Shown here: positions 17,689 through 56,415 of the stretch, piece by piece
Layout of the letters: every line of letters begins with the position of its first letter
How positions within the stretch are numbered: the stretch's first letter is position 1
NCBI GenBank assembly: GCA_965204745.1
Contig: OZ242010.1
Coordinates: 928,001-992,000 of the forward strand
DNA: 64,000 nucleotides
Reading direction: 5' to 3'
Source: Candidatus Latescibacterota bacterium
GTDB taxonomy: Bacteria; Latescibacterota; UBA2968
Made by a program: the position numbers and the translations under genes
Notes under the pieces: generated by a model
The model's database searches: none
What the model saw: the letters and a program-made list of their open reading frames with translations, nothing else
Told to the model about the DNA's origin: nothing

Positions 17689-20394
17689 TTACATCGAAAC
17701 GCCCAAAAGCCCGCGCGTGAATTGAAAATCCGTGTTGCCGATTGCGGGTGTTTTGGGCGCGTATTGGCGGGAGGCGACCGCGAGGATCAAATTCAAAAGG
17801 ACATCGGCATTGCGGTTGGGATCCGCGCTGAGGATCGCGTCAAAGTCATCGCCATAGAAGTGGGCCGCGCGTTCATCGGCGGTTGCTTGTAGCACTGGGA
17901 TGAGCGGATGGCCCTGTTGGGGGTGGTCGCCGGCATACGCCGCGATGAGGTGGACGCCTGTTCCGCCCAATCCGGTGAGGGTTTCGACCCAGTGATCGGT
18001 CTGGCTGTCCATGATATAATACCCGGCGCGATCTGTGGCTTGCCCGTGCGATAGGGTGGGCGCGGGGGGCGTGTTGCCCAACACAGCGGACAGGTAGATC
18101 GGATGGGACAGGAAACGTGCGTTGTCCGGCACGACGAGCGTGGCGCCAGCGCGGATCAGGGTTTGCGACAAGTGGGCGAGGGATTGCGCGGCACTATCGG
18201 AAAGAGAACCCGTAGCGTGCAGGCCGATGCGGAGTGCGGACAGATCGGTCGGCGCGAGTTCCGGGGGTTCGGCCCGTGCGAATTGGCGGGCAAAATAGGC
18301 TTCGACCTCGTCCAAAACCGCGTCTATGCCGCCGTCGAGTTGGACGCTCGCCCATCCGTACGCATCCGCGCTGATCCCCTTGTCGATGAGCGCGTGGCGG
18401 ATATAGTCGTTGTGGGTCTTTTCGCAACCGTGTTCCAAGAGCAAGCCGCTGTGTACCAAGGGGTGGGTGAGATACCCGAGCATGGTGCGCGTGTACAGGC
18501 GTTCGGTGGCTTCGCCGGCTACGCCGCAACCTTCGGTATGCGCGAGGGCCACAAAGCGCGAGATGCCCTTTTCGCGGCCCAAGCCCTTTGCGGTGAGGCG
18601 TTTGGCGGCCATCAGCGCGATTTGCCCGGAACACAAGCTAGTCGGCAAAATCAAACCCAAGCGGTCCGTGGTCACGCCGTCGGGGGTGCGGATGGCGTCA
18701 AAGGTGCGTTGTGCTGCATCTCTTTGCCCGTGGTCGTCTTGAACGACGAGGGGCACGCCCAGGGGTTCGGGACGATTTTGCAGGTCGGGCAGGTGATCTG
18801 TGGAGGTCTGCCGCCAGGCGCGCCAAATAGAAACTTGCGCGTGGGCGGCCCGTTCGCCTTTGCTGCGTTGTCCAGACGCGATTTTGCAGGTCAGGTCAAA
18901 CATGTCGCGGCCCAGGTCGTCCATAGACGCGCCATCCAAATACGCGCCCGCGTTGACATCCATATCCTTGCTGAGCAGGCCATAGCGTTCAGAGGTGGTC
19001 ACGATTTTGAGGGTGGGCACAAAGGGGAAATTTGTGATCGAGCCGTTGCCCGTGACAAAGAAGATCAGATTGCATCCCGAAGCCACTTGCCCGGCGATGC
19101 TCTCGAGGTCATTGCCCGGGCTGTCCATAAAATAGTAGCCCGGCTGCGTCATGGGCGCGGCGTAGTCGATCACCGCGTCGAGGCGCACATCCGGGTGGCG
19201 TTTCATGGCCGCGCCGATGGATTTGAGGACGATGTTGTACAGGCCGCGAAATTTGTTGCCCCCGGACGGGTTGCCTTCTGCGGTTGTGCCGTGCCACGCG
19301 GCCAGAGTCTTGTACGCTTCGACTTTGTCGAGAAAGCGTTGGGCCACGTCGCGAGACGCGACGTTTTGCAGGACATAAGACTCGGCGCCGATGAGTTCGT
19401 CTGTTTCCGCGAGATTAGCCGCGCCGCCATAGCGGATGATTTCCCGCGCAACCCACGACGCCAATGGATTGCCGGAGATGCCCGAAAACGCATCGGAGCC
19501 GCCGCATTGCAACGCGATTTTGATGTGCGACAGGGGTTCGGAGGTGCGGGGCATCGCATCGACTTGCGGCAACCAGTTGGCGATGATGGTTTCGCCCTGT
19601 TGCAGCGCGTTTTCAAAACTGCCTTTGAGTGTGAGGAAGTGGTGCAAGACGTGGTCGATGGGATGGTTTTCTCTTTTGAGAAACGCCTGCAAGTCCCGAT
19701 TGGTGATGGCTTCAAAGCCATAGTCCGCCGCGAGCACGGCGCCGACATTGGGGTGAGCGATGAATCCCGCGAGGGTACGCAAGAGGAGGGCTTTGTTGTT
19801 CGGGCGTTCCGCGCCGCCGCCTTCGGTGTGGGCCACCGCGACAATGCCGTCGATGTTTGGATAGGCGCGTACGCGATCTTTGAATCGCGCCTCGAGTTGT
19901 TTGGCATAACTCGCGGTGCGCGAGGATGTGCCCAAGATGACGATGGTATTGCGCGTGCCCACGCCTCGGTTGCCCGGTCGCCTGTATCCCTGAAACGCGC
20001 CGCCCGAGTCGTAGCGTTCGACTTGCTCGCCCGGCGCAAACGCGTCGAGTTGGTGCGGCACGATGCGGTCTTCAAAATTGGGCACATCGGGAAGGTCAAA
20101 GGCGAGGGCGCGCAAGGCGAGGGCATGGAGGATCTGCGGATTGCAAGCGTAATCCCCAGGAGCTATGGGGCGCGTGGCAACGCCAAACGGCAAGCCCCAC
20201 GAGAGCAGGGGATCGCCCGTTGCAATGGGCTGAACCGCAAAGCGATGGCCTTCGAGGATGGTATGCCCAAGCGCGAACGCGTGCCCCGCATGGACGATCT
20301 GCGTGCCCTTGTCCAGCGTGCGGATCGCAATGCCGACGTTGTCAGCGGGTAGCGGAAGACGGCCGATTTCGGAAAAAGCGTGGGGTTTTGCCAT
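17689..20394 (-). CDS. UxaA/GarD-family sugar-acid dehydratase with duplicated domain
   Basis: SAF domain, VGTRN, HTEGGG, CGGSDAFSG..GNP and NPSGGNK; second HTEGCG/HGCEK block. Confidence 0.85.
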   Translation of the reverse strand: MAKPHAFSEIGRLPLPADNVGIAIRTLDKGTQIVHAGHAFALGHTILEGHRFAVQPIATGDPLLSWGLPFGVATRPIAPGDYACNPQILHALALRALAFDLPDVPNFEDRIVPHQLDAFAPGEQVERYDSGGAFQGYRRPGNRGVGTRNTIVILGTSSRTASYAKQLEARFKDRVRAYPNIDGIVAVAHTEGGGAERPNNKALLLRTLAGFIAHPNVGAVLAADYGFEAITNRDLQAFLKRENHPIDHVLHHFLTLKGSFENALQQGETIIANWLPQVDAMPRTSEPLSHIKIALQCGGSDAFSGISGNPLASWVAREIIRYGGAANLAETDELIGAESYVLQNVASRDVAQRFLDKVEAYKTLAAWHGTTAEGNPSGGNKFRGLYNIVLKSIGAAMKRHPDVRLDAVIDYAAPMTQPGYYFMDSPGNDLESIAGQVASGCNLIFFVTGNGSITNFPFVPTLKIVTTSERYGLLSKDMDVNAGAYLDGASMDDLGRDMFDLTCKIASGQRSKGERAAHAQVSIWRAWRQTSTDHLPDLQNRPEPLGVPLVVQDDHGQRDAAQRTFDAIRTPDGVTTDRLGLILPTSLCSGQIALMAAKRLTAKGLGREKGISRFVALAHTEGCGVAGEATERLYTRTMLGYLTHPLVHSGLLLEHGCEKTHNDYIRHALIDKGISADAYGWASVQLDGGIDAVLDEVEAYFARQFARAEPPELAPTDLSALRIGLHATGSLSDSAAQSLAHLSQTLIRAGATLVVPDNARFLSHPIYLSAVLGNTPPAPTLSHGQATDRAGYYIMDSQTDHWVETLTGLGGTGVHLIAAYAGDHPQQGHPLIPVLQATADERAAHFYGDDFDAILSADPNRNADVLLNLILAVASRQYAPKTPAIGNTDFQFTRGLLGVSM

Positions 20395-20700
20395 GTGCTG
20401 TATTCCTTTGGAAAGGGTGGCGTGACAGAGAGAAATAAGAGAAAGAATGGGGGATGTCAAGGAAGATGAGAGGCAGTAAAAAGGGGAGACGGGAGACGGG
20501 ATTTTAGCCACGAGCGGGGTACAACTGGCGACAGCCAGTTCAAAGGCACAAAAGGCACAAAAGGGGTACAACTAGGCGATAGCCCGTAGTGTGTAGGGGC
20601 GATGTCCCCGTGCTCACCCAAAGATACAAGACGCAAGAAGGTTGTCGCCCAAGCGGTCAGTGGTCAGTGGATTGAACAGATGACGATGTAAATTTGTGTG

Positions 20701-20729
20701 TTGACAAGGGTACCTTGTTTTTTTATCAT
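20701..20729 (+). promoter_or_regulatory. sigma70 promoter for hup-bS22-(RNA)-tRNA
   Basis: TTGACA-17 nt-TATCAT. Confidence 0.7.
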
Positions 20730-20789
20730 TCACGCACGAAAAATAAAACGGGTAGAAGGATGTCTGTAAAACCAAAGAAAGGGGATGCG

Positions 20790-21086
20790 GTGACCAAAGC
20801 GGATATTGTCAATCAGATTGCCGAAGCAACGGGATTGACCAAAACAGATACTTCATTGGTCGTAGAGGGCATGCTCGCGTCGCTCAGTGAGGCGATGCAA
20901 CAGGGTGAACACATTGAGATTCGCGGTTTTGGCACGTTCAAGGTGGTTCGCCGCGCACCGCGCACGGGTCGCAACCCCAAAACAGGCAAAGTCGTAAAAA
21001 TTCCCGCACGCCCAGTGCCCGTGTTCAAGCCCTCACGCGAACTGCGTCATTCTGTTGCGGAGGCTTCTGTTCTTCCATCTAGCTAA
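20790..21086 (+). CDS. hup: HU/IHF family DNA-binding protein
   Basis: TKADIV, IRGFGTF, GRNPKTG and PVFKPS motifs. Confidence 0.92.
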   Translation: MTKADIVNQIAEATGLTKTDTSLVVEGMLASLSEAMQQGEHIEIRGFGTFKVVRRAPRTGRNPKTGKVVKIPARPVPVFKPSRELRHSVAEASVLPSS

Positions 21087-21107
21087 TGCACCCACAGGAG
21101 GTGGCTC

Positions 21108-21200
21108 TTGCCCAGCGGAAAAAAGCGCAAACGCGCAAAAATCGCAACGCATAAGCGAAAAAAAAGACGCCGACGAGACCGACACAAAAAGAAGGTTTAA
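21108..21200 (+). CDS. 30S ribosomal protein bS22 (AURKAIP1/COX24-like), 30 aa
   Basis: AGGAGG RBS then TTG; MPSGKKRKRAKIATHKRKKRRRRDRHKKKV; below ORF-track length cutoff. Confidence 0.88.
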   Translation: MPSGKKRKRAKIATHKRKKRRRRDRHKKKV

Positions 21201-21240
21201 GGGTAGTAAGGCGGTCAGCGATTCGCGCACGGCACGCCAA

Positions 21241-21322
21241 GGGCCCCTGACCTTGTACATTACCGGTCTTGTCAGCCCCAAAGGCTGCGATACTCTTCGG
21301 TAAAACTTGAAGGCAGGGGCCC
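21241..21322. ncRNA. Putative structured RNA related to the IS110 bridge RNA donor loop
   Basis: Long hairpin GGGCCCCTG...CAGGGGCCC containing two 12-nt, one 10-nt and one 9-nt exact matches to the IS110 non-coding end. Confidence 0.55.
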
Positions 21323-21348
21323 ATTTCCCAGTTGGATGTGGCTACTCT

Positions 21349-21425
21349 GGGGCATTAGCTCAGTTGGATAGAGCACTGGTCTCCGGAACCAGAGGTCACA
21401 GGTTCGAATCCTGTATGTCCCACCA
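21349..21425 (+). tRNA. tRNA-Arg(CCG)
   Basis: Anticodon arm CTGGT-CT CCG GA-ACCAG; GGTTCGAATCC; CCA encoded. Confidence 0.95.
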
Positions 21426-21430
21426 TAAGC

Positions 21431-21469
21431 AATGGGGCGAGAGTGATGAATAACTCTCGCCCCATTTTT
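21431..21469 (+). terminator. Intrinsic terminator
   Basis: ATGGGGCGAGAGT...ACTCTCGCCCCATTTTT. Confidence 0.75.
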
Positions 21470-21499
21470 GTATTCGTCGTTATCCGCGTTCATCCCCGC

Positions 21500-22555
<1,056 letters not shown>

Positions 22556-22646
22556 CTACTGACCGCTTGGAACGTTCGGGCGAGCACGGGACATCGCCCA
22601 AAAAGGTGAGAGGTGAGAGGCAAGACGTGAGAAAGCCACCCCTCTT

Positions 22647-22704
22647 GTATCTTGGAAGAAAGGGTTAATTAGGTGTTGCGCCCTCGCATCGAGACAAGCC
22701 ATCT
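22647..22704 (+). mobile_element. IS110 left-end stub (58 bp)
   Basis: 54/58 identical to 28886-28943; preceded by the same CCCCTCTT target half. Confidence 0.85.
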
Positions 22705-22899
22705 CACGTCTCGGTTTTGGGCGGCTGGGCGGGGACTGACTACTGACTACTGACCGCTTGGAACGTTCGGGCGAGCACGGGGGCATCGCCCCTCTCTTGA
22801 ACTGGCTATCGCCAGTTGTACCCCTTTTGTGCCTTTGAACTGGCTGTCGCCAGTTGTACCCCGCTCGTGCCTTTTGTGGCTAAAATCTCATCTCCCCTC

Positions 22900-23538
22900 T
22901 CACCGCCGGGCGGCTGGGCGGGGACTGACCGCTGAATCCTGCGCGGCATCGATCAGTTCGTTGATTTTGTCGCGGGCGTCGCGGGCTTCTTTGTTTAGCT
23001 TTTGGATCAGCGGCGGCACTTGTGAGGCGGTCTGAATGCCCAGTTTTTCGAGCGTGGTTTTTACGTTGGGAAACATGGCTTGCACCCCATCGGCAATGAC
23101 GCGGGCGGCTTTTTGCAGGGGCGGCCCCAAGGCGGAGTCGTCAATGAGTTCGGGCACGCGGCTGTGGATGGGGTTTGCGCGCAAAAACAGGGTGAGCAGG
23201 CCGATGATCAAGACGCCTTGCGCCAGGCCCAAAATGCCGCCGCCAACCGCATCTATCAGGCCCAAGGGCGATGCGTGCAGGACCCTGTGGATGGCCTGAC
23301 CAATCAGGTAGCAGGCGATCAAGACAGCCAGCCCCACCGCAAAAAACCCGATCAGCATGGTGCCCTCGCTGGTCGAATCGAACAGGGCACGCGCCAAAGA
23401 TTCGCCATAAGCGAGGGCACATCCGTAGGCCAAGACCACGCTGATCAGCCAGATCAGGCTTTGCACCAGCCCGATTTGCCACCCTTTCCAAGCGAGGTAA
23501 AAGAGGCCGAGTGCGAGAATGGGATCGATGATGTTCAT
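22900..23538 (-). CDS. CvpA family membrane protein
   Basis: MNIIDPIL..., GWQIGLV and IDAVGGGILG; four TM segments. Confidence 0.85.
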   Translation of the reverse strand: MNIIDPILALGLFYLAWKGWQIGLVQSLIWLISVVLAYGCALAYGESLARALFDSTSEGTMLIGFFAVGLAVLIACYLIGQAIHRVLHASPLGLIDAVGGGILGLAQGVLIIGLLTLFLRANPIHSRVPELIDDSALGPPLQKAARVIADGVQAMFPNVKTTLEKLGIQTASQVPPLIQKLNKEARDARDKINELIDAAQDSAVSPRPAARR

Positions 23539-23688
23539 GGCAAAAATAAAAAAGCGACAGCCACCCGTAGGTGACTATCGCGTGACCTAAAAATTGCGAA
23601 AGACTTAGAGAATACCCCCTACTCGCCTCAGTTGGGAGAGACAGGCTCCCTTGTAGAGGGGTGAGGAAGCGGATCTTAAAGCACTCTC

Positions 23689-23886
23689 TTAGCGGGTGTA
23701 TTGTTGGTCCATCTTGATCCGCTTGCGTCTTGCAGCGGCAATTTTGCGTTTCCGACGTTCACTTGGTTTTTCAAAGTGCTGGTTTTTCTTCATGTCGGAA
23801 ATAACACCGGCTTTTTCGCAGGCTTTTTTGAACCGCTTGAGTGCTCTTTCAAACGGCTCGTCATCGCGTACGAGGACACCAGGCAT
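23689..23886 (-). CDS. rpsU: 30S ribosomal protein S21
   Basis: EPFERALKRFKK...FEKPSERRK. Confidence 0.95.
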   Translation of the reverse strand: MPGVLVRDDEPFERALKRFKKACEKAGVISDMKKNQHFEKPSERRKRKIAAARRKRIKMDQQYTR

Positions 23887-24091
23887 GCCTGGATCACCCC
23901 TTTCTTGAATGAGTGTTGTGAACGACCAAAGCGAAGTTCAATATATAAAAACCCCCGCACTTTCGCAACCCGTTTTTAGGCGCGAAACGTGCGAGGGGAG
24001 TTTGGTCACAAGCGGGATAACTGGCGATAGCCCGTTCAATGGAGAGCAGTGTGTAGGGGCTGACGCCTCCACGCTCGCCCGAAGATAAATG

Positions 24092-24242
24092 CAGTAGTCA
24101 GTAGTCAGTGGTCAGTGGTCAGTGGTCAGTGGTCAGTGGTCAGTGGTCAGTGGTCAGTGGTCAGTGGTCAGTGGTCAGTGGTCAGTGGTCAGTGGTCAGT
24201 GGTCAGTGGTCAGTGGTCAGTGGTCAGTGGTCAGTGGTCAGT
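24092..24242. repeat. Heptamer tandem array (CAGTGGT/CAGTAGT), about 21 copies
   Basis: Direct reading. Confidence 0.95.
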
Positions 24243-24354
24243 CCCCGCCCATCGCCGCCCAAAGGCGGTTCGCAGATCAGGCAGAGGGCGCAGATGTAGG
24301 GGCGATGCCCCCGCGCTCGCCCAACCCGTTCAACCGCTTGGTATGACCACTGCC

Positions 24355-25119
24355 TTAAGCAAATTGCAACACGGTGCGATGCGCTCCGACGTGACCGATG
24401 TTGTCGTCGATTTCCCGGCGGTTCATCATGCCGATGGTGATGGCGTCGATGGCCGGGATGTCGAGGACGTAGTGGATGGCGTCGCGCGCGGGCAGGTCGC
24501 CGCGGCCCACCACTTTCATGCCGTAAACCCCGATGTCGTTGGCGTCCATTTCTTCGAGAATGGGGATGACCCGTTCGGGCGGGCCGTCCATGTTTTTGCC
24601 AGCGTAGTTGATGCGCGCCAAAACGACGTCGACCCAAGGGGTAAAGGCGGCTTGCTGGAACGCGTCGATATCGTGGCAGGAAACCCCGTGGGCGCGGATG
24701 ACGCCGCGTTGCTTTTTCTCGGCGAGCACGTCCATGACCCCGCGATACGAGAAGGGCCATTCCTCGTCGGTCAGGCAATGCATGAGAACGATGTCGATGT
24801 AATCGGTGTTCAGTTCGCGCAAGATGCGATCCATATCGCGCTCGGCCTCGCGGGCCGTGGTGGCGCGAATTTTGGAGGTGATGACCACGTCCTCGCGGTC
24901 GATGTGATCGAGCGCGGCCGCGAGGTGGCGATGGCTACCGTATTGATCCGCGCTGTCCCAAAACGCGATGCCCCGCTCAAAGCCGTAGATGAGCAGGTCG
25001 GTCAACGCACGCTGTCCCAAGTCCGTCTGGTTGGAACGCCCGCCCCAACCATTGGTGCCCGTGCCAAAACAGAGTTGCGAGACCGCGATGCCGGTGGTGC
25101 CGAGTTCGACGATTTTCAT
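24355..25119 (-). CDS. Aldo/keto reductase
   Basis: LGTTGIAVSQLCFGT, WDSADQYG, ITSK and TDYIDIVLMH motifs. Confidence 0.9.
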   Translation of the reverse strand: MKIVELGTTGIAVSQLCFGTGTNGWGGRSNQTDLGQRALTDLLIYGFERGIAFWDSADQYGSHRHLAAALDHIDREDVVITSKIRATTAREAERDMDRILRELNTDYIDIVLMHCLTDEEWPFSYRGVMDVLAEKKQRGVIRAHGVSCHDIDAFQQAAFTPWVDVVLARINYAGKNMDGPPERVIPILEEMDANDIGVYGMKVVGRGDLPARDAIHYVLDIPAIDAITIGMMNRREIDDNIGHVGAHRTVLQFA

Positions 25120-25337
25120 GGTGAGCTCCTCGTGAAAATGAAAGACGACCCCTCCCCCGGCCCCTCCCCGAGACGGGGAGTCCTTATACCCATTTGATTT
25201 TAGGTTGTCCGTATCCTGGTCCCATCAAGGAATGGCGAGGGGGTAGGTCTCGGGTTAGACTGGTGTTTTGTGTATATTAAAGTCCTGTGCTGCATTCGTC
25301 AATGAATTTGTGTTGGGGAAAAAAGGAGTTTGCCGCG

Positions 25338-26381
25338 ATGAAATTAGGTCTTGTCGGGTTGCCGCAGGTGGGGAAAAAGACGCTGTTTCGGTTGTTGACC
25401 GGGCAGGTTGCAAGCGAGATGGGGCAGGTGAAAGTGCGCGACGCACGGTTTGATAGGCTGGTGGAACTGTATGCCCCACAGCGCGGAGTGCCCGCACAGA
25501 TGGATTTTGTGTTGTTGCCGGATTTGGATGTTCAGGCGGATCGCAATATCCCGGTTTTTCGCGGTCTGGAGCGGGTGGATGTGATTTGCTTGCTCGCGCG
25601 GGCGTTTGAAGACGATACGGTTTTTCACGTTGCGGGCCGCGTGGATGCCAAGCGCGATGTGCAGGCGTTTTGGGACGAGTTGTTGCTCGCCGATCTGATT
25701 TTTGTGGAGAAGCGGTTGGCGCGGTTGGCAAAAGAGCAGCGAACAAGAGATCGGCAACGCGCAGCGCGAGAGGCGGATTTGATGACGCGGATGCAGGCGC
25801 ATTTGGAAGCGGGCAACCCCCTCCGAGAATTCGCGCTCACCGCAGAGGAGGTGAAGTTGACCGCGAGTTATCCCTTTTTGACGGCCAAGGCCGTGATCGT
25901 GGTGCTGAACACAAGCGAAGATCAAATCGGCGATGCGCGTCTCGTGGCGGAACTCGCGGCTGATTTTGCCACCTGTGGGTTTGAATGGATTTCGATTTCC
26001 GCGCAAATCGAGGTGGAAATTTCCCTGCTCGACGCAGAGGGTCGCGCGGCGTTTCTCGCCGATTTGGGCATCGATCAACCCGCGCTGGATCGGTTGACTC
26101 TGCTGTGTTATGAGACGCTGGGGTTGATTTCGTTTTTCACCGTGGGCGAGGACGAGGTGCGCGCTTGGACGATTCGCAAGGGGACATTGGCCCAGCGAGC
26201 AGGCGGCGCGATTCACGGGGATATCGAGCGGGGGTTCATTCGCGCAGAGGTGACGCGCTACGAGGATTTGATCGCACTGGGCGATGAGCAAAAAGTGAAA
26301 GCCGCAGGCAAACTGATGGTTAAGGGAAAAGACGCAGAGGTGCTAGATGGCGATGTGATTCACTTTTTGTTTAAGGTGTGA
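25338..26381 (+). CDS. YchF-like protein with divergent G motifs
   Basis: GLVGLPQVGKKT; SFFTVGEDEVRAW; IHGDIERGFIRAE; DGDVIHF (TGS domain). Confidence 0.85.
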   Translation: MKLGLVGLPQVGKKTLFRLLTGQVASEMGQVKVRDARFDRLVELYAPQRGVPAQMDFVLLPDLDVQADRNIPVFRGLERVDVICLLARAFEDDTVFHVAGRVDAKRDVQAFWDELLLADLIFVEKRLARLAKEQRTRDRQRAAREADLMTRMQAHLEAGNPLREFALTAEEVKLTASYPFLTAKAVIVVLNTSEDQIGDARLVAELAADFATCGFEWISISAQIEVEISLLDAEGRAAFLADLGIDQPALDRLTLLCYETLGLISFFTVGEDEVRAWTIRKGTLAQRAGGAIHGDIERGFIRAEVTRYEDLIALGDEQKVKAAGKLMVKGKDAEVLDGDVIHFLFKV

Positions 26382-26493
26382 TGTGGCTCGAGTGGCATTT
26401 TGGGGCAAGCGTTCCCCGCTTGACTTTTCTCGAAATGGATCTTTATTATCGCTGTGCGTAATAGAGGGTTGACACAGAACGACGAGGGCAATC

Positions 26494-28689
26494 ATGACCA
26501 ATAATTCTCATACCGCCGAACGGCTCACCCCGTTGCATCGCATCAAACTGTTGCTTCTAGCGGGGTTGATCGCCTTGGGTACTTTTGTGCAGTGCGGGCA
26601 ACCCGAACCCGAACCCGTGTCCGAGCCAGCGTCGGCGTCGCGGCCCAAGTACACCGGCGACCTTCCACAGTTGCAGGAACGCGGGGCCTTGCGCGTGATC
26701 GTGCGCCCGGATCCGATCAGCCACATGCCTCGTCGGGCAGAGCCGGTGACCCTGAACCACGACATCGCCAATGGCCTGGCAGAAGCCTTTAAGGTGAAGT
26801 TGGAACTCGTCAATGCCGAGAATTACGCGCAGATGATCGACAAACTCCTCGAAGGTGAGGGCGACATCATCGCCGCCAGCTTGACCGTGACGCCAGAGCG
26901 CGAACAGGTCGGGGCGTTTTCCGTGCCCTATCTGTACGTGGATGAGTACTTGATAACAGCAACCGGGGACAGCCTGCCGCAGACCATAGACGAACTCGCG
27001 GGCATGGTAATCAGCGTGCGGCAGACGAGTTCGTATCATCAAACCCTAGTTGATATTCAGAAGCGCGTCCCGTCTTTGACCATCCACGCCGCGCCCGAAT
27101 CGCTCAGCACCACAGCGCTGATCGACGGCGTCGCGCACGGCAAATTCACCGCGACCGTCTCCGACGCCCACATCTGGCAAGCCGTGTCCAGCTATTACGA
27201 CAGGTTGGCGACCCCACTCGTGCTGGCTGAAAATCGCCCCATCGCCCTGATGATGCGGCCCGGCGATGTGAAGCTCAAAGAAAAGGTGGATGAGTTCCTG
27301 CTCGCATACCAGTTCACGCGCCATCGGCAACAGACATTTGACGACGACCTGAGCGGCCTGAAAAAACGCCGGCGGTTGCGGATGATCACGCGCAACAATG
27401 CCATGACCTATTTTATCTACCGCGGCCAGCAAGTGGGCTTTGAATACGAACTCATGAAAAAATTCGCGTCCGAACACGACTTGCGCCTCGAAATCGTCAT
27501 TCCAGACAGCCATGCCGAACTGCTCTCGTACTTGAACGCGGGCAAGGGCGACGTCGTGGCCGTGGCAATGACCATCACCGAAGAACGGCAAGCGCAGGCC
27601 GCATTTACCCTGCCCTACAACGAGGTGGAAGAACTGGTGGTGGTGCGCGAAGAGGACCATTCAATTACCAGCTTGAAGGATTTGGCCGGGAGAACCGTCC
27701 ATGTGCGCGAGAGCTCTTCGTTTCACACCACCCTGACCGCGTTGCAAAATTCTATCGGCGGCCTCGAGATCGCGGCGGTTGCCGACCATATTGAAACCGA
27801 AGATATTTTGGCCGGGGTGGAAGCGGGCAAATACGATATTACGCTGTGCGACTCCAATTTGCTCGACGTGGAACGCGCTTATGGCCGCCGCCTCAAAGCC
27901 GCCTTCAGCATCAAACCCACCGCGTTGGGCTGGGCCGTGCGAAAGGACAATCCGGAATTGCTGGCCGCACTCGATCAATACATCGCACGCGAAAAAGGCG
28001 GTTTGTTTTTCAACATGATGAAAAAGCGGTATTTTCAGAACAAACGCGCAGTCGCCAGAGCCAAGGATTCCCTGCGGGTCGATCTGGGCGGGAAGTTGTC
28101 GCCTTATGACGACCTCGTCAAAAAGTACGCGTACCAATACGGGCAGGACTGGCGGTTGACCACCGCGCAGATGTACCAGGAATCCAAATTCGATCCCAAA
28201 GCCGTCAGTTGGGTCGGCGCGCAGGGCCTGATGCAGGTGATGCCGAGAACGGGCCGGCAGTTGGGATTCACCAAACTTTACGAACCCCACGAGAGCATCC
28301 ACGCGGGCGTGAAGTACATGCATCAACTCATCAACCGGTTCGATCACAACTTGCCAATGGACGAGCGGATTCGCTTCGCGCTGGCTTCGTACAATGTCGG
28401 GTACGGTCATGTGCTCGACGCCCGCCGCTTGGCGCGAGAAAAGGGATGGAATGCGGACCGCTGGTTCGGTCATGTGGAACGGGCCATGCGCCTGCTCTCC
28501 CAACCCGCTTACTACAAACGGGCGCGATACGGCTTTTGCCGCGGCAACCAACCCGTACACTACGTCGAGAACATCCAGAGTTTTTACGACGCGTATGTCG
28601 AAATCCTGAGCACGACCACGCCCACAACTCTGCCCCTCGTCGCGGGCTTCATCGGACGCCCATCCGCTATAACGCAACCGCATCGCTGA
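26494..28689 (+). CDS. MltF-like lytic transglycosylase with two substrate-binding domains
   Basis: Two SBP_bac_3-like domains; YQESKF, GLMQV and ASYNVG SLT motifs. Confidence 0.88.
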   Translation: MTNNSHTAERLTPLHRIKLLLLAGLIALGTFVQCGQPEPEPVSEPASASRPKYTGDLPQLQERGALRVIVRPDPISHMPRRAEPVTLNHDIANGLAEAFKVKLELVNAENYAQMIDKLLEGEGDIIAASLTVTPEREQVGAFSVPYLYVDEYLITATGDSLPQTIDELAGMVISVRQTSSYHQTLVDIQKRVPSLTIHAAPESLSTTALIDGVAHGKFTATVSDAHIWQAVSSYYDRLATPLVLAENRPIALMMRPGDVKLKEKVDEFLLAYQFTRHRQQTFDDDLSGLKKRRRLRMITRNNAMTYFIYRGQQVGFEYELMKKFASEHDLRLEIVIPDSHAELLSYLNAGKGDVVAVAMTITEERQAQAAFTLPYNEVEELVVVREEDHSITSLKDLAGRTVHVRESSSFHTTLTALQNSIGGLEIAAVADHIETEDILAGVEAGKYDITLCDSNLLDVERAYGRRLKAAFSIKPTALGWAVRKDNPELLAALDQYIAREKGGLFFNMMKKRYFQNKRAVARAKDSLRVDLGGKLSPYDDLVKKYAYQYGQDWRLTTAQMYQESKFDPKAVSWVGAQGLMQVMPRTGRQLGFTKLYEPHESIHAGVKYMHQLINRFDHNLPMDERIRFALASYNVGYGHVLDARRLAREKGWNADRWFGHVERAMRLLSQPAYYKRARYGFCRGNQPVHYVENIQSFYDAYVEILSTTTPTTLPLVAGFIGRPSAITQPHR

Positions 28690-28707
28690 GTGACGCGGTT
28701 GACCTAT

Positions 28708-28756
28708 CAAAAAAAATGAGAGGTTGCGACGAACTCGAGCGCGACCTCTCATTTTT
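28708..28756. terminator. Terminator-like hairpin
   Basis: AAAAAATGAGAGGTTGCG...CGCGACCTCTCATTTTT. Confidence 0.65.
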
Positions 28757-28790
28757 AAGTTACTGACCACTTGGGCGGCGATGGGCGGGG

Positions 28791-28848
28791 ACTGACCACT
28801 GACCACTGACCACTGACCACTGACCACTGACCACTGACCACTGACCAC
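28791..28848. repeat. Heptamer tandem array (ACTGACC), about 8 copies
   Basis: Direct reading. Confidence 0.9.
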
Positions 28849-28899
28849 TTGTTTCTTGCCTCTCCCCTCTTGCGTCTCCCCTCTTGTATCTTGGAAGTA

Positions 28900-29095
28900 A
28901 GGGTTAATTAGGAGTTGCGCCCTCGTATCGAGATAAGCCATCTTGATGCCCGGCTCGGGGAAGGCCGGCCCCTCTTGAAGGCGATGACCTTGTAGGTAAG
29001 ATAGGCCCCCCGACCGCCGGGTCTATGCCGAAGAGTATCTAAGTCCCTTGAGGCTGCATATACAAGACCGGTAGACTTGGCGTCAATGGTCGGGA
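28900..29095 (+). ncRNA. IS110 bridge RNA (target and donor loops); 5' end approximate
   Basis: Target guides CCCCTCT (28969-75) and AGGTAAGA (28994-29001); donor guides AGAGTATCT (29032-40) and ATACAAGA (29060-67); each pair flanks a hairpin inside a closing stem. Confidence 0.8.
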
Positions 29096-29149
29096 TCGAA
29101 CTCGAGCGCACACCAGACCCCTTACAACCCCTCATCACAGGAGGCCCCC

Positions 29150-30157
29150 ATGTCGAAATCTCAACCCGCTTTCGCCGGCATTGATGTCAGTGCCCGCACG
29201 TTGTCTGTTGCCCTGTCCAGACCCGGACAAGCTGTCATGCAAGCGACCTTTGCCAATGATCCCCAAGCCCATAAGCGGTTGCTGAAGTGGCTCACCAAGG
29301 GCGGGCACATGGTCTCTGTGTGCCTCGAAGCGACCGGGCTTTACAGCTTGGGGGTGGCCTTGGCCTTGCATCGGCATCGCCACACAAAGGTCATGGTCGT
29401 CAATCCCAAAGCGATGAGCAAGTACGGTCAAGCCCGCATGCAACGAGCCAAGACGGATGCGAAGGATGCGTTGTTGATCATGGATTATGCCGAGCGCATG
29501 CCGTTTGTGCCTTGGCAAGCGCCGAGTGAGCAACGGCTTCAACTGCAAGCCCTCACCAGACGCATTGACCAACTCAAGCAGGTGATCATCAGTGAACAGA
29601 GCCGCAACCACGCGCAAAGCTACCACATCCTGAGCACACGGCGCATCGCACGCGATATTCAGGTGAATATTCGACACCTCAAACGCCGGATTGCATACTT
29701 GGAAGACCAAGCCCTCGATCTCGTTTTGCACGATGAGACCCTCAAGCGCGCCTACCAACGCCTCTGCTCGACGCCTGGCATCGCACAAACGAGCGCCTTG
29801 CGGCTCTTGGCCGAGTTGACCCTTTTGCCTGAGGAGATGCAACCGCCCCAGTGGGTCGCACATGCAGGCCTGGATCCCAAACCCAAACAATCCGGAACCG
29901 CCAACCCACAAAGACGCATCTCGAAAACCGGGAATAAGTACCTCCGCCATGCCCTCTATATGCCTGCCTGGGTGGCCATCAGACACGAAGTCCATGTCAA
30001 AGCCTTCTATGACCAACTCATTGCCCGCGGCAAGAAACCTTTGCAGGCTATCGTTGCGGTGATGCGAAAGTTGCTCCATTCAATCTGGGGCATGTTGCGG
30101 CATGACCAAGATTTTGAGGGCGAGAAATTCTATCGAATCGCCCCGCAATCCCCTTGA
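29150..30157 (+). CDS. IS110 DEDD recombinase/transposase
   Basis: GIDVS, LEATG, KTDAKDA, QSG serine motif and GNKYLR. Confidence 0.96.
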   Translation: MSKSQPAFAGIDVSARTLSVALSRPGQAVMQATFANDPQAHKRLLKWLTKGGHMVSVCLEATGLYSLGVALALHRHRHTKVMVVNPKAMSKYGQARMQRAKTDAKDALLIMDYAERMPFVPWQAPSEQRLQLQALTRRIDQLKQVIISEQSRNHAQSYHILSTRRIARDIQVNIRHLKRRIAYLEDQALDLVLHDETLKRAYQRLCSTPGIAQTSALRLLAELTLLPEEMQPPQWVAHAGLDPKPKQSGTANPQRRISKTGNKYLRHALYMPAWVAIRHEVHVKAFYDQLIARGKKPLQAIVAVMRKLLHSIWGMLRHDQDFEGEKFYRIAPQSP

Positions 30158-30291
30158 CCTTTAAGAGAGTATCTTACCTCTCCCGTCTTCCGTCTCACCT
30201 TTTACCACTGCCCGCCTTTGAACGGGCTATCGCCAGTTGTACCCCTTTTGTGCCTTTTGTGCCTTTTGTGGCTAAACTTTCATCTCACCTT

Positions 30292-31290
30292 TTACCGCTC
30301 TTGCACCAATTTCTCGAACTCTGAAGTCATCTTTTCCACGAACCCATCCTCTCGGCGCACGATCATAAACGCGGCCAAGCCGCGGGCTTCTGCAAATGCA
30401 AATCCCCTTTCCGGCCCCATCACGTTGATCGCCGTCGCCAAGCCATCCGCGTACAGGCAACTCGGATGCACCACGGACACGGACGCCAAGCCGTGCGTAA
30501 TCGGTCGGCCCGTGCGCGGGTCAAGGGTATGCGAATACCGCACCCCATCGCGTTCAAAATAATTGTGGTAATCCCCAGACGTCGCCAACGACATGTTTTT
30601 CAGTGCCAGCACCTTTTGCAACGCGCCCGGTTCTGTGGGACTCGCAATGCCGACCCGCCAGCGTTGGCCGAGGTGATTGCGTCCCTTGGTCCGCAACTCG
30701 CCGCCGATTTCGATAAAATAGCCATCCACGCCCAAACTATCCAAATAGCTCGCCACGCGGTCCACGCCAAAGCCCTTGGCTATCGCAGACAAATCGCAAT
30801 AAACCCCACCCACCTCTTTTTTGATCGCAGACGCAGACCGATCCACGCGAACCTTCTCGTAGCCCACCCGCGCTTTGCGTGCGGCTATCGAATCCGGCGG
30901 TGGCACGCGGTTCGGGATGGCGTTTGGGCCAAAGCCCCACAAATTGACCAATGGCCCAACTGTGACGTCAAACGCGCCATCGGACCAAGTGCTGATTTGA
31001 TGGGCAACGCGCAAAACCCGCGCAAAGTCCGGCGAGACGCGCACCCAGTTAGTCGAGCGCGAACGATTAAAGCGGCTGATCTCCGAATCCTTTCGATACG
31101 TGGACATCTGCCGGTTCACCTCGTCCAACCGCGCATCGATCTCCCGCGCCAATACCCGTGCGTCCAACGCGACCTCATCCCGCGCGATCTTCACCTGAAA
31201 CGTCGTCCCCATTGTCGAACCCGAGATCGCCATGAACGGCTCATCGCATCCGGCGAGGACAACCATCAAGATTGAAACCACCCAGCGCAT
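30292..31290 (-). CDS. apbE: FAD:protein FMN transferase
   Basis: TMGT, GAFDVTVGPL, DLSAIAKG, ATSGDY, YSHTLDPRTG and ADGLAT motifs. Confidence 0.95.
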   Translation of the reverse strand: MRWVVSILMVVLAGCDEPFMAISGSTMGTTFQVKIARDEVALDARVLAREIDARLDEVNRQMSTYRKDSEISRFNRSRSTNWVRVSPDFARVLRVAHQISTWSDGAFDVTVGPLVNLWGFGPNAIPNRVPPPDSIAARKARVGYEKVRVDRSASAIKKEVGGVYCDLSAIAKGFGVDRVASYLDSLGVDGYFIEIGGELRTKGRNHLGQRWRVGIASPTEPGALQKVLALKNMSLATSGDYHNYFERDGVRYSHTLDPRTGRPITHGLASVSVVHPSCLYADGLATAINVMGPERGFAFAEARGLAAFMIVRREDGFVEKMTSEFEKLVQER

Positions 31291-31361
31291 TTCGCATCTC
31301 GCAAAAAAAAGCGGAGCCCGGCGCGCCGGCACTCCGCTCGTCGTGTTGGTCTATGACGACA

Positions 31362-32612
31362 CTAGCCGCCAAAATCGTCGAACAAAACGTTCTCGGGCTC
31401 CACGCCCAAATCGTCTAACATGTTCAGACAAGCCGTGAGCATCAGCGGAGGGCCGCAAATATAATATTCGCAATCCTCGGGCGCGGGGTGATCTTTCAAA
31501 TACTCATCGTAGAGCACTTGGTGAATAAACCCGGTCAGGCCCGTCCAATTGTCTTCTGGCATGGGGTCGGACAGCGCGACATGCCAGGTGAAGTTGTCAA
31601 AATCGCGCTGCAACCCGTCGAAATCATCCACGTAAAACATCTCGTTCAAACTGCGCGCGCCGTACCAGAAGGTGACTTTGCGATCTGTGCCAATGCGTTT
31701 GAATTGATCAAAAATATGCGACCGCATGGGCGCCATGCCCGCGCCGCCGCCAATGAAAATCATCTCCGCGGGTGTATCTTTGGCAAAAAACTCGCCGTAA
31801 GGCCCCGAGATGGTCACATCATCGCCGGGTTTCAAATTGAAGGTCCACGACGACATCTTGCCCGGCGGAATGCCCGTCGTGCCCGGCGGCGGAGACGCCA
31901 CGCGGATGTTGAGCATGATGACCCCTTTTTCCTCGGGGTAATTCGCCATGGAATACGCGCGAAAAACCGGCTCATCCACCGTGGAAATATTGTCCCACAC
32001 CTCGAAGTGATCCCAGGTGCTGTGGAACCGATCTTCGCCATCGGCGGCTGTGATATCGAAGTCGCGGTAGTCGACCGTATGCGGCGGGCATTCGATCTGG
32101 ATAAACCCCCCTGCGCGAAACCCCACGTCTTCTCCCGGCGGCAATTCGAGCACCAATTCCTTGATGAAGGTGGCGACATTGTAATTGGAGAGCACCTTGC
32201 ACTGCCACTTCTTGACGCTAAACACCTCGGCGGGCACTTCGATATTCATGTCGCCCTTCACCGTCACCTGACACGAGAGCCGGCATCCCTCGCGCGCTTC
32301 CTTGCGGTTGATGTGCGATTTCTCGGTCGGCAAAATATCGCCGCCCCCTTCGCGAATCCCCACCTTGCACTGACCGCAGGTGCCCCCGCCGCCACATGCG
32401 GAAGACACAAAAATTCTGTTGTCCGCCAATGTGTTGAGCAACTTGCCGCCCACGGGCACCGAAATGCTGTGGTCCGGATCGTCATTGATCACGATGCGCG
32501 CCTGACCGGCCGTCACCAACCGCGATCTGGCAATGAGAATAATCGCCACGAGCATGAGCACGATGGTCGTGAACATCCCCACACCGAGTAGAATCAGTTT
32601 GACGTCGTCCAT
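31362..32612 (-). CDS. nqrF: Na+-NQR subunit F
   Basis: [27 protein letters not shown] and DDFGG motifs. Confidence 0.97.
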
Positions 32613-54715: not shown

Positions 54716-54883
54716 GGTAAGAGGTAAAAGGTAAGAGGTAAGAGGTAAGAGGTAAGAGGTAAGAGGTGAAAGGTAAGAGGTAAGAGGTAAGAGGTAAGAG
54801 GTAAGAGGTGAAAGGTAAGAGGTAAGAGGTAAGAGGTAAGAGGTAAGAGGTGAAAGGTAAGAGGTAAGAGGTAAGAGGTAAGA
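54716..54883. repeat. (AAGAGGT)n array with a 42-bp higher-order unit
   Basis: [(AAGAGGT)5 GAAAGGT] three times; abuts the IS110 right end. Confidence 0.93.
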
Positions 54884-56176: not shown

Positions 56177-56415
56177 GGGGAAAGGGTTGGTTAGTCCCAG
56201 TTCATCCTCAAGTTGTCAGTTGTCAGGCCGCCCCCCATCACCCGTAGGGACAGGCCCCTGTGCCTGTCCTCAGTCCTCGGTTAGTCGCTTCGTCATTCCG
56301 ATGCACGCGCAAGCACAACGTCGGTAATTCAGTGACTTGTGTTTTTCGCCTTTCCCATCTCACGTCTCACGTCTTGCCTCTTGCCTCTTACGTCTCGCCT
56401 CTTACCTCTTGCGTC

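What the first reader, a model, noticed from the sequence alone, without database searches (positions are those of the whole stretch)
21234..21322. Orphan bridge-RNA-derived hairpin in a core operon: candidate anti-bridge or donor-loop-only RNA for IS110
Seen: an 82-nt hairpin sits between bS22 and tRNA-Arg(CCG), with no transposase or IS ends. Its minus strand reads taCCGAAGAGTATCg-cagcctttggggctg-ACAAGACCGGTA. The bridge RNA donor loop reads tgCCGAAGAGTATCta-agtcccttgaggct-gcatatACAAGACCGGTA (29026-29073). The exact 12-mers are at 21261-72 and 21289-300, and ACGCCAAG (21234-41) also matches. The outer stem carries TGACCTTGTA (21248-57) and CTTGAAGGC (21306-14). These are the two halves of the target-loop hairpin CTTGAAGGC-GA-TGACCTTGTA, but in swapped order and opposite orientation to the donor part, so this is not a simple colinear IS relic. 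Known: in IS621 the target and donor loops bind separate recombinase dimers. Inference: read-through from the hup promoter would make an RNA antisense to both donor guides. A minus-strand transcript would be a donor-loop-only decoy whose arms could also pair with the target loop. Either would give the host RNA-level control of a bridge recombinase.
Basis: partly seen in the sequence, partly recalled or inferred. Interest (0 to 1): 0.85.

Follow-up and report, generated by a model that had tools for sequence, protein, structure and literature searches.

The report
Orphan bridge-RNA donor-loop relic hairpin
The hairpin is an old, leftover piece of a jumping gene's guide RNA that became fixed between a ribosomal-protein-like gene and a tRNA gene in one bacterial genus, and nothing found here shows that it controls the jumping gene.

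Summary
An 82-nt hairpin lies at 21241-21322, and both exact 12-mers shared with the resident IS110 bridge RNA are there.

The hairpin is bridge-RNA-derived and orphan, but it is not a rearranged mosaic of target-loop and donor-loop pieces. Its minus strand is colinear with the whole donor-binding-loop (DBL) domain of IS110 bridge RNAs. This includes a basal stem that the resident IS has lost and that related IS copies keep (63 of 73 aligned bases identical to the G072 IS).

A covariance model built from the host hairpins finds one copy at the same locus in 20 of 21 genomes of the genus. In a 151-genome sample of the phylum, 4 genomes outside the genus had hits. All 5 places I fetched lay antisense and just upstream of IS110 transposase homologues or fragments. 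In 9 of 9 sister-genus genomes the spacer is only 7-27 nt, so this is an insertion of roughly 130 nt dating to the base of the genus.

18 of the 21 genus genomes lack this IS clade. In G018 the hairpin loops no longer match the resident guides. The stems are kept, with G·U pairs mostly on the plus strand.

The best reading is an ancient IS110 relic kept as a plain stem-loop in the hup operon transcript. An anti-bridge role is possible but unsupported.

The parts
21241..21322 (-). Orphan relic of an IS110 bridge-RNA donor-binding-loop (DBL) domain. The bridge-RNA sense is on the minus strand. On the plus strand it is a hairpin inside the hup-ORF-tRNA transcription unit.
   Evidence: Fold. Model R1 hits antisense of IS DBL domains. 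Colinear alignment with 63 of 73 aligned bases identical to the G072 IS. Orientation test z 6-14 against 1-5 for most pairs.
21241..21254 (.). 5' strand (plus sense) of the basal stem: a 9-bp GC-rich stem, a bulged A at 21250, and a 4-bp CCTT/AAGG extension. It pairs with 21310-21322.
Evidence: The same basal stem, with the same bulge, is seen in the DBL domains of related IS.
21310..21322 (.). 3' strand (plus sense) of the basal stem.
21261..21265 (.). Middle stem, 5' strand. It pairs with 21298-21302.
   Evidence: Pair states across the genus are A-U, G·U and G-C.
21266..21272 (-). Internal-loop strand equal to the reverse complement of the 3' part of the right donor guide (RDG). It is 5 nt shorter than in every IS compared.
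21273..21287 (.). Distal 5-bp stem with a 5-nt loop, the homologue of the DBL stem-loop.
21288..21297 (-). Internal-loop strand equal to the reverse complement of the left donor guide (LDG).
   Evidence: The LDG matches the right end of the IS.
21298..21302 (.). Middle stem, 3' strand.
21202..21348 (.). The whole ORF-stop to tRNA spacer, 147-148 nt by either count. Sister genera have only 7-27 nt here, so about 130 nt is inserted DNA. Only the hairpin plus about 5 nt on its tRNA side is demonstrably IS-derived.
   Evidence: Flank homology is not significant.
20701..20729 (+). Promoter-like site upstream of hup (11 of 12 consensus positions).
20760..21086 (+). hup (HU family DNA-binding protein).
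21109..21201 (+). The name was not confirmed by Pfam or NCBIfam. It is 96% identical in DNA across the genus.
21349..21425 (+). tRNA-Arg(CCG).
21431..21466 (+). Terminator-like hairpin with a T-run after the tRNA. It also lies between the end of obg and the relic on the minus strand.
29007..29094 (+). DBL domain of the resident IS110 copy, used for comparison. Its basal stem has diverged from that of the relic.
28886..30175 (+). Resident IS110-family element (approximate ends, with core CTT at the right junction). The transposase is at 29150-30157. There are 52 full-length copies in the genome, in three subfamilies.

Best explanation
The hairpin is an ancient, single-copy remnant of an IS110-family insertion.

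Shown:
- What survives is the donor-binding-loop domain of the element's bridge RNA: basal stem, middle stem, the two guide strands and the distal stem-loop.
- It lies antisense to the hup - small ORF - tRNA-Arg unit.
- It entered a spacer that is 7-27 nt long in sister genera, at the base of this genus.
- It came from an IS lineage more like the one now seen in G072 than like the IS now resident in the window.
- The exact 12-mers shared with the resident IS reflect guides that are conserved across the IS clade because the IS ends are conserved, together with slow divergence of the 'short-form' hairpin. The resident IS is not shown to be the hairpin's source.

Inferred:
- The transposase, the IS ends and most or all of the target loop were later lost.
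- Because the tRNA sits directly behind the ORF throughout the family, the inserted segment is transcribed on the plus strand as part of the operon transcript.
- There it acts only as a stable stem-loop. The most likely role is a 3' protective or processing structure left on the hup mRNA after the tRNA is cut out.
- That role would explain why the stems are kept (with G·U pairs mainly on the plus strand), why the loops drift, and why internal deletions are tolerated as long as the basal stem remains.
- It does not act as a bridge RNA.
For: Identity.
- Model R1, built only from host hairpins, matches the antisense strand of bridge-RNA DBL domains over its full length. The Gemmatimonadota relative scores 34.4 bits (E 3e-6), and three more score 17-19 bits.
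- In a sample of 151 genomes of the phylum, 4 genomes outside the genus had hits (26-46 bits). All 5 of the places I fetched lie about 35-50 nt upstream of, and antisense to, transposase homology. Four have near-full-length homologues 53-64% identical; one (G035) matches only residues 1-39.
- Global alignments favour host-minus against IS-sense (z 6-14 for most pairs) over host-plus (z about 1-5). For each of the 8 host hairpins tested the best partner is the G072 IS. G000 scores 63 of 73 identical against it and 60 of 74 against its own IS.

Age and locus.
- 20 of 21 genus genomes have one hit each. The 18 aligned in detail lie in the ORF-tRNA spacer.
- The spacer is 7-27 nt in 9 of 9 genomes of five sister genera.

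Independence from the resident IS.
- The transposase clade is found in 3 of 21 genus genomes at E<=1e-20.

Structure maintenance.
- 96.8% of 403 cells form standard pairs, against 37-50% when partners are slid. Three pairs show changes on both sides.
- 30 G·U cells at 7 pairs on the plus strand, against 6 A·C cells at 3 pairs.
- Plus-strand MFE is lower in 16 of 18 orthologues, whereas true DBL domains show no strand bias (4 of 11).
- Mean pairwise identity is 0.75 in stems, 0.59 in non-stem positions and 0.38 in the upstream spacer.

Transcription.
- RNA-library contigs of relatives bridge hup to the tRNA with about 150 unlike letters where the spacer lies (X14 record 16). Another runs 207 nt upstream from the tRNA (X5 record 23).
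Against: - No strand-specific RNA data exist for this organism, so transcription of either strand is inferred. The contigs cannot show strand and may contain DNA.
- The plus-strand preference is weak once shared ancestry is allowed for, roughly 6 against 3 independent events by my reading. The alignment used was also fitted to the plus-strand model.
- Hairpin stems (0.75) are no better conserved than hup third codon positions (0.80).
- Five of 18 orthologues carry internal deletions and one genome (G001) lacks the element, so any function is dispensable.
- No T-run follows the stem, so it is not a classical terminator.
- Homology of the flanking spacer to the target loop or to the transposase 5' UTR is not significant, so loss of 'the rest of the IS' is inferred from context only.
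- G000's perfect match to its own IS guides includes one state otherwise seen only in that IS. I attribute this to chance, but cannot exclude gene conversion or selection.
Confidence: 0.6

Rival explanations
1. Purely neutral relic. The hairpin is decaying IS110 debris with no role on either strand. Its stems persist only because the genus is young and because palindromes are slow to lose both arms.
For: - Five of 18 orthologues have internal deletions and G001 has lost the element.
- Stems are no better conserved than hup third codon positions (0.75 against 0.80).
- The count of further pair types does not exceed the shuffles (499 of 500 shuffles reach it).
Against: - Stems are clearly better kept than loops or the flanking spacer (0.75 against 0.59 and 0.38).
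- Three pairs have changes on both sides; one of them is U-A to C-G in 5 sequences.
- Every deletion variant keeps the basal stem.
- G·U pairs are biased to one strand.
Confidence: 0.25
2. Anti-bridge sponge. The plus-strand RNA, made in quantity as the hup 3' region, pairs with both donor guides of the resident IS110 bridge RNA and lowers transposition in the genomes that carry the IS.
For: - In G000 both internal-loop strands are perfectly complementary to the resident guides: 16 of 16 loop positions, 12+12 nt counting the stem bases.
- Cofolding predicts a heteroduplex 16.8 kcal/mol more stable than the two hairpins apart in G000, 14.2 in G016 and 9.8 in G018.
- The plus strand is the one expected to be transcribed.
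- IS110 elements are known to have cis-antisense small RNAs over this region (Asr9/Asr10; passages of PMC12288879 read).
Against: - The element is fixed in the 17 hairpin-bearing genus genomes that lack the IS clade.
- It resembles another IS lineage more than the resident one.
- Loop complementarity is 14 of 16 in G016 and 11 of 16 in G018 although both carry the IS.
- Heteroduplex gain is no better for cognate than for non-cognate pairs.
- G000, with the perfect match, has the largest IS expansion (52 full-length copies).
- No paper found describes such an RNA.
Confidence: 0.08
3. Donor-loop-only RNA. A minus-strand transcript folds as a stand-alone DBL, binds a recombinase dimer and acts as a decoy or helper.
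For: - The minus strand has the stem / LDG / stem-loop / RDG layout of a DBL (layout as described in PMC11208158).
- In the IS621 synaptic complex the two loops come from two different bridge-RNA molecules (figure legend read), so a lone DBL could in principle occupy a dimer.
Against: - No promoter-like site was found on the minus strand in 20500-21700, and a strong hairpin lies between the end of obg and the relic.
- The RDG is 5 nt shorter than in all 11 IS compared.
- In most orthologues the minus strand has A·C mismatches in the 5-bp middle stem and folds less well (16 of 18).
- 18 of the 21 genus genomes have no recombinase of this clade.
Confidence: 0.03
4. Gene conversion. The old relic in the G000 lineage was recently overwritten in its guide region by one of the many IS copies, which would explain the two exact 12-mers. 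This rival is compatible with the best explanation.
For: - G000 has 52 full-length copies to serve as donors.
- The G000 hairpin shares with its IS a base in the RDG remnant that the other IS lineages and the G016 hairpin lack.
Against: - The 5-nt gap in the RDG, the distal loop and the closing pairs differ from the IS inside the supposed conversion tract.
- The first 12-mer is also exact in the distant G132 IS, so it needs no conversion.
- Only one position is really diagnostic.
Confidence: 0.1

Closest known systems
Donor-binding loop of IS110-family bridge RNAs (IS621 type; Durrant et al. 2024, PMC11208160; Hiraizumi et al. 2024, PMC11208158; passages read)
   Same: - The minus strand has the layout stem, 5' guide strand, stem-loop, 3' guide strand.
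- Sequence and structure homology to DBL domains of a defined IS110 clade is shown by a covariance model and by alignment.
- The 5' guide equals the left donor guide of the resident IS and matches its right end.
   Different: - There is no recombinase gene, no IS ends and no recognisable target-binding loop.
- The 3' guide is 5 nt shorter.
- It lies antisense to the surrounding transcription unit.
- It is single copy and fixed at one chromosomal locus across a genus.
- Stem changes favour the opposite strand.
Orphan ssr9 copies and the antisense sRNAs Asr9/Asr10 of ISPpu9/ISPpu10 (PMC12288879, passages read; PMC8450116, seen only in the listing)
   Same: These are IS110-associated small-RNA modules. 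Some occur away from any transposase (three orphan ssr9 copies), and others are antisense to the bridge-RNA / 5' UTR region.
   Different: - ssr9 lies downstream of tnp, is mobile through its own circles and is not a bridge-RNA loop.
- Asr9/Asr10 are encoded inside the IS, in cis.
- The element here is a fixed chromosomal remnant of the donor loop itself.
REP-type extragenic hairpins that protect upstream mRNA 3' ends (from general knowledge; no paper read)
   Same: A stable GC-rich stem-loop without a T-run, downstream of a highly expressed gene. This is the proposed working analogy for the plus strand.
   Different: REPs are multi-copy families. This element is single copy and has a traceable IS origin. 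The protective role is inferred, not shown.
Truncated IS fragments / solo IS ends
   Same: A non-autonomous remnant of an insertion sequence. The same genome holds 13 partial matches to the IS, plus a 60-nt solo left end at window 22644-22704 that fell below that search's threshold.
   Different: It is older than those fragments (genus-wide), derives from another IS lineage, and consists of just the structured RNA module.

Membership tests
IS110-family bridge RNA | Encoded next to, and in the same direction as, an IS110 recombinase (DEDD_Tnp_IS110 + Transposase_20) within IS ends | tested here: not met
   The neighbours are hup, a 30-codon ORF, tRNA-Arg and obg. There are no IS-end motifs in the spacer. 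The nearest transposase is at 29150-30157.
IS110-family bridge RNA | Two internal loops: target-binding and donor-binding | tested here: not met
   Only the DBL domain is recognisable. Similarity of the tRNA-side flank to target loops is not significant.
IS110-family bridge RNA | DBL layout of stem, LDG, stem-loop, RDG, with homology to known DBLs | tested here: met
   Minus strand. R1 hits antisense of IS DBL domains at up to 46 bits. The RDG is 5 nt short.
IS110-family bridge RNA | Guides complementary to the donor (joined IS ends) of a cognate element | tested here: inconclusive
   The LDG remnant matches the resident IS right end. The RDG remnant covers only about 5 nt of core plus left end. 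In G018 5 of 16 loop positions differ from the resident guides. 18 of 21 genus genomes have no cognate IS.
IS110-family bridge RNA | Transcribed in the sense orientation and bound by the recombinase | not testable with these tools
   There are no RNA runs of this organism, and contigs give no strand.
Rho-independent terminator | GC-rich stem-loop followed directly by a T-run | tested here: not met
   The scan did not list it, and the tail after 21322 has no T-run. The tRNA's own terminator at 21431-21466 is listed.
REP / MITE-like repeated palindromes | Many dispersed copies per genome | tested here: not met
   There is one full-length copy in G000 and one R1 hit per genome in 20 of 21 genomes.
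Any Rfam 15 family | Covariance-model match | tested here: not met
   In 19000-32000 at E<=1 only the tRNA matched. The resident bridge RNA itself also has no Rfam match.
cis-antisense sRNA of IS110 elements (Asr9 type) | Encoded inside the IS, opposite the bridge-RNA / 5' UTR region of the same copy | tested here: not met
   The hairpin is 7.6 kb from the nearest IS copy and has no IS around it.

The most novel reading that the evidence does not exclude
In the three genomes that carry the related IS110, the relic has been co-opted as a natural trans-acting 'anti-bridge' RNA. It would be transcribed at high level as the tail of the hup mRNA. Its two internal-loop strands would kiss and then zip up with both donor guides of the bridge RNA, titrating the donor-binding module and damping transposition. 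This would be a host-encoded RNA inhibitor of an RNA-guided recombinase, built from the element's own guide.
Probability: 0.08. Interest if true: 0.8.

Novelty: new member of a known kind. Interest (0 to 1): 0.3.

Why it matters
- It shows that a bridge-RNA module can outlive its transposon and become a fixed, structured part of a core operon transcript. To my knowledge no such orphan donor loop has been described; two full-text searches found none.
- It is a caution for genome scans. Exact guide-length matches between an orphan hairpin and a resident IS110 can arise from shared descent, because donor guides are conserved along with the IS ends.
- It dates an IS110 invasion to the base of a Latescibacterota genus.
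- It shows that the donor-loop domain of this IS clade has a conserved basal stem, with the same motifs as the small hairpin inside the target loop. That may interest people who engineer bridge RNAs.
- If the anti-bridge reading were true, it would be the first host RNA brake on bridge recombination. The evidence here leans against selection for that role.

Tried and rejected
1. 'Swapped target-loop halves': rejected. The 10-mer and the 9-mer are the two strands of the DBL domain's own basal stem in related IS.

2. Direct-orientation homology (host plus strand = DBL sense): considered because the stems read alike both ways, then rejected. Alignment z-scores are 1-5 for direct against 6-14 for reverse-complement, and every R1 hit on an IS is antisense.

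3. Covariation of hairpin loops with resident IS guides across G000, G016 and G018. Loop matches are 16, 14 and 11 of 16. At the two variable RDG sites the matches are 2/2, 1/2 and 1/2. This is no evidence of tracking.

4. Extending the relic into the flanks (target loop on the tRNA side, transposase 5' UTR on the ORF side). Local alignments looked suggestive, but against 300 shuffles most z-scores are below 2 and the best is 3.5 among 98 tests. Not claimed.

5. A second covariance model from IS DBL domains. The alignment (A7) was staggered at its 3' end, so I did not build the model.

6. Public RNA runs.
- The 18 runs on record as RNA hold only 0.07-0.09 of the sampled words.
- Laying four of the 24 listed runs (X1, X5, X12, X14) gave no cover of 21203-21337 at 80% likeness. 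It gave contigs of relatives that bridge or flank the spacer.
- There is no strand or end information.

7. Metagenome pattern scan. It returned 11 loci, all with weak R1 scores (13-26 bits), no transposase homology, and only the pattern's ends matching. These are chance hits, and no orthologues were gained.

8. MFE strand bias as a strand indicator. True DBL domains show none (4 of 11), so the 16 of 18 bias in the host is only a hint.

9. Rfam: no family.

10. Naming the small ORF: Pfam and NCBIfam returned nothing.

11. Tools not used: protein-structure, complex, atlas and homologous-protein searches. The question did not need them.

12. Supplements of papers were closed and not requested. 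The supplementary tables of PMC12288879 and the supplementary data of PMC11208160 might list orphan RNA copies that I could not see.
Full report
**What is there.**
Window 21241-21322 is an 82-nt inverted repeat. On the plus strand it reads as follows:
- a 9-bp GC-rich basal stem, a bulged A, then 4 more pairs;
- an internal loop;
- a 5-bp middle stem;
- a second internal loop of 7 nt on the 5' side and 10 nt on the 3' side;
- a 5-bp distal stem with a 5-nt loop.

It folds at -45 kcal/mol as plus-strand RNA (z -3.1, 0 of 200 shuffles as good). As minus-strand RNA it folds at -44.3 kcal/mol (z -1.85, 10 of 200).

It lies 40 nt after the stop of a 30-codon Lys/Arg-rich ORF that follows hup, and 26 nt before tRNA-Arg(CCG). 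The 8-mer at 21234-21241 is not beyond chance. Rfam has no family for the hairpin, nor for the resident bridge RNA. The name bS22 for the small ORF was not confirmed.

**The resident IS.**
- The transposase at 29150-30157 has the two IS110 domains.
- The genome (one contig, 5.48 Mb) holds 52 full-length copies in three subfamilies, about 100, 96 and 88% identical, plus 13 partial matches.
- Junctions of the 52 copies show insertion into tandem heptamer repeats.
- The 5' strand of the first bridge-RNA loop equals the left flank. The 3' strand is the reverse complement of the right flank, and both change together with the flanks in the 88% subfamily.
- The second loop matches the right end plus core, and core plus left end.

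This agrees with the published definitions of LTG, RTG, LDG and RDG (passage of PMC11208160 read). The '9-mer GA 10-mer' in the target loop is the end of the LTG, the small distal hairpin of that loop, and the first bases before the RTG.

**The hairpin is old and fixed.**
- The hup-to-tRNA segment matches end to end in 18 of the 19 genomes of the same genus in that search. The aligned spacers all contain the hairpin; only G001 has a different spacer.
- A covariance model built from seven of the host hairpins on the plus strand (A4, R1) finds one hit per genome in 20 of 21 genus genomes. The 18 aligned in detail are syntenic.
- G000, G016 and G018 have a 'short form'. The others have a 'long form' with a longer middle stem.
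- G007, G011, G017, G014 and G004 carry internal deletions but keep the basal stem.
- In nine of nine genomes from the five sister genera of the family, the ORF stop and the tRNA are only 7-27 nt apart. In this genus the spacer is 139-175 nt in the 7 genomes measured.

The hairpin therefore arrived with an insertion of roughly 130 nt at the base of the genus.

**What it derives from.**
- R1 also matches related IS110 elements over its whole length, always on the strand opposite to the transposase: the Gemmatimonadota relative at 34.4 bits, and three others at 17-19 bits.
- In a sample of 151 genomes of the phylum, 4 genomes outside the genus had hits: G030 (four), G072, G132 (two) and G035, at 26-46 bits.
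- All five places I fetched lie about 35-50 nt upstream of, and antisense to, transposase homology. Four have near-full-length homologues 53-64% identical to the resident one. G035 matches only residues 1-39.
- Global alignments of 8 host hairpins against 11 IS DBL domains give z 6-14 for host-minus against IS-sense in most pairs, and about 1-5 for the direct orientation. The lowest values, near 2-3 in both orientations, involve the most distant IS.
- For each of the eight hosts the best partner is the G072 IS, not the resident one. G000's hairpin has 63 of 73 aligned bases identical to it, and 60 of 74 to its own IS.

The alignment is colinear from basal stem to basal stem. Relative to the IS the hairpin has three 5-nt gaps, one of which removes 5 nt of the RDG.

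The basal stem of the DBL domain in G072, G035, G030, G132 and the two relatives from other phyla carries the same motifs, with the same single-base bulge, as the host hairpin. The resident IS has a different basal stem.

**Is it tied to the resident IS?**
- The transposase clade occurs in 3 of 21 genus genomes: G000 with 62 matches, G016 with 8 and G018 with 19 (E<=1e-20). These are the three with the short form, so they count as one clade, not three independent cases.
- Loop positions matching the resident guides number 16 of 16 in G000, 14 of 16 in G016 and 11 of 16 in G018.
- The first 12-mer is also exact in the distant G132 IS, because the LDG is conserved along with the IS right end.
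- Only one base in the second 12-mer is peculiar to G000's hairpin and G000's IS.
- Predicted heteroduplex gains are favourable (-16.8, -14.2 and -9.8 kcal/mol for the three cognate pairs) but are no better than for non-cognate pairs.

I conclude that the exact matches reflect shared descent and conserved guides, perhaps with some chance or gene conversion. They do not reflect tracking of the IS by the host.

**Which strand matters?**
- On the R1-fitted alignment of 18 orthologues, 96.8% of 403 cells are standard pairs, against 37-50% when partners are slid by 1-3 columns. Three pairs have changes on both sides.
- 30 cells at 7 pairs are G·U on the plus strand, and these would be A·C on the minus strand. 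6 cells at 3 pairs are the reverse.
- Plus-strand MFE is lower in 16 of 18, while true DBL domains show no bias (4 of 11).
- These sequences are kin and the alignment leans towards the model, so this is a mild preference for the plus strand.
- The only promoter-like site in 20500-21700 is the plus-strand one before hup. A strong hairpin lies between the end of obg and the relic on the minus strand.
- Because the tRNA directly follows the ORF in the whole family, the operon is most simply read as one transcript. The inserted segment would then be transcribed on the plus strand (inference).
- RNA-library contigs of relatives bridge hup to the tRNA, or run 207 nt upstream of the tRNA. This fits but cannot prove transcription.

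**Conservation.**
Mean pairwise identity is 0.75 in stems, 0.59 in non-stem positions, 0.38 and 0.66 in the two flanking spacers, and 0.80 at hup third positions. The constraint is real but weak, and the deletions and the loss in G001 show the element is dispensable.

**Mechanism proposed.**
- Shown: a bridge-RNA donor-loop domain, antisense, old, single copy, with its stems maintained.
- Inferred: after loss of the rest of the IS, it persists as a stable stem-loop in the hup operon transcript. There it most likely marks and protects the 3' end of the hup mRNA once RNase P releases the tRNA.
- It is not a terminator of the classical kind. It is not a bridge RNA either: it has no recombinase, no target loop and a shortened RDG.

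**Comparison with what is known.**
- The DBL layout matches the description in PMC11208158.
- The nearest published parallels are the orphan ssr9 copies and the cis-antisense Asr9/Asr10 RNAs of ISPpu9/ISPpu10 (passages of PMC12288879).
- A large survey of bridge-RNA loci (bioRxiv 10.64898/2026.10.21.760802, passages read) kept only sequences flanked by the recombinase, and contains neither 'orphan' nor 'standalone'.
- Two full-text searches found no host-encoded anti-bridge RNA. This is a statement about those searches only.

**Verdict.**
This is a tidy example of an IS110 relic, of modest interest, with a low-probability but attractive regulatory reading that simple experiments could settle.

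Noticed in passing
window 28760-28900 and 30175-30300; 52 junctions in the genome: The resident IS110 inserts into tandem heptamer microsatellites. Its two target guides co-vary with the flanks in the 88% subfamily, which gives a clean natural example of target-loop reprogramming. One copy sits directly inside the target left by another, as a tandem pair at genome 1121584-1124187.
   Followed up: partly
window 22644-22704: A solo 60-nt fragment of the IS left end (the first 15 nt exact), cut off before the bridge RNA, lies upstream of obg among heptamer repeats.
   Followed up: partly
window 54846-56181 (minus strand): A second full-length copy of the IS (96% subfamily) lies in the window.
   Followed up: no
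IS bridge RNAs: window 28975-28995 and 29007-29094; L132, L134, L135, L136, L117, L118: Across this IS110 clade the arms of the small hairpin inside the target loop are the reverse complements of the two strands of the DBL basal stem, over 6-9 nt. In G072 the differences are wobble-compatible. This could mean a shared protein-recognition helix or an alternative inter-loop pairing. Unexplained.
   Followed up: no
window 21109-21201 and orthologues: The 30-codon ORF is 96% identical in DNA across the genus, with third codon positions (0.97) no more variable than the rest. It matches no Pfam or NCBIfam model. This pattern is unusual for a coding sequence.
   Followed up: partly
L058 (G001) about 1960-2260: In the one genus member without the hairpin, the ORF-tRNA spacer is about 330 nt of unrelated sequence that includes heptamer-like repeats. 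This suggests replacement rather than simple deletion.
   Followed up: no
window 21234-21241; G016 and G018 orthologues (L042, L043): Just outside the basal stem on the ORF side, G016 and G018 carry 12 extra nt. All three short-form genomes share short motifs with the 3' internal loop of the resident IS DBL domain, but not in colinear order. The similarity is not significant. Unexplained.
   Followed up: partly
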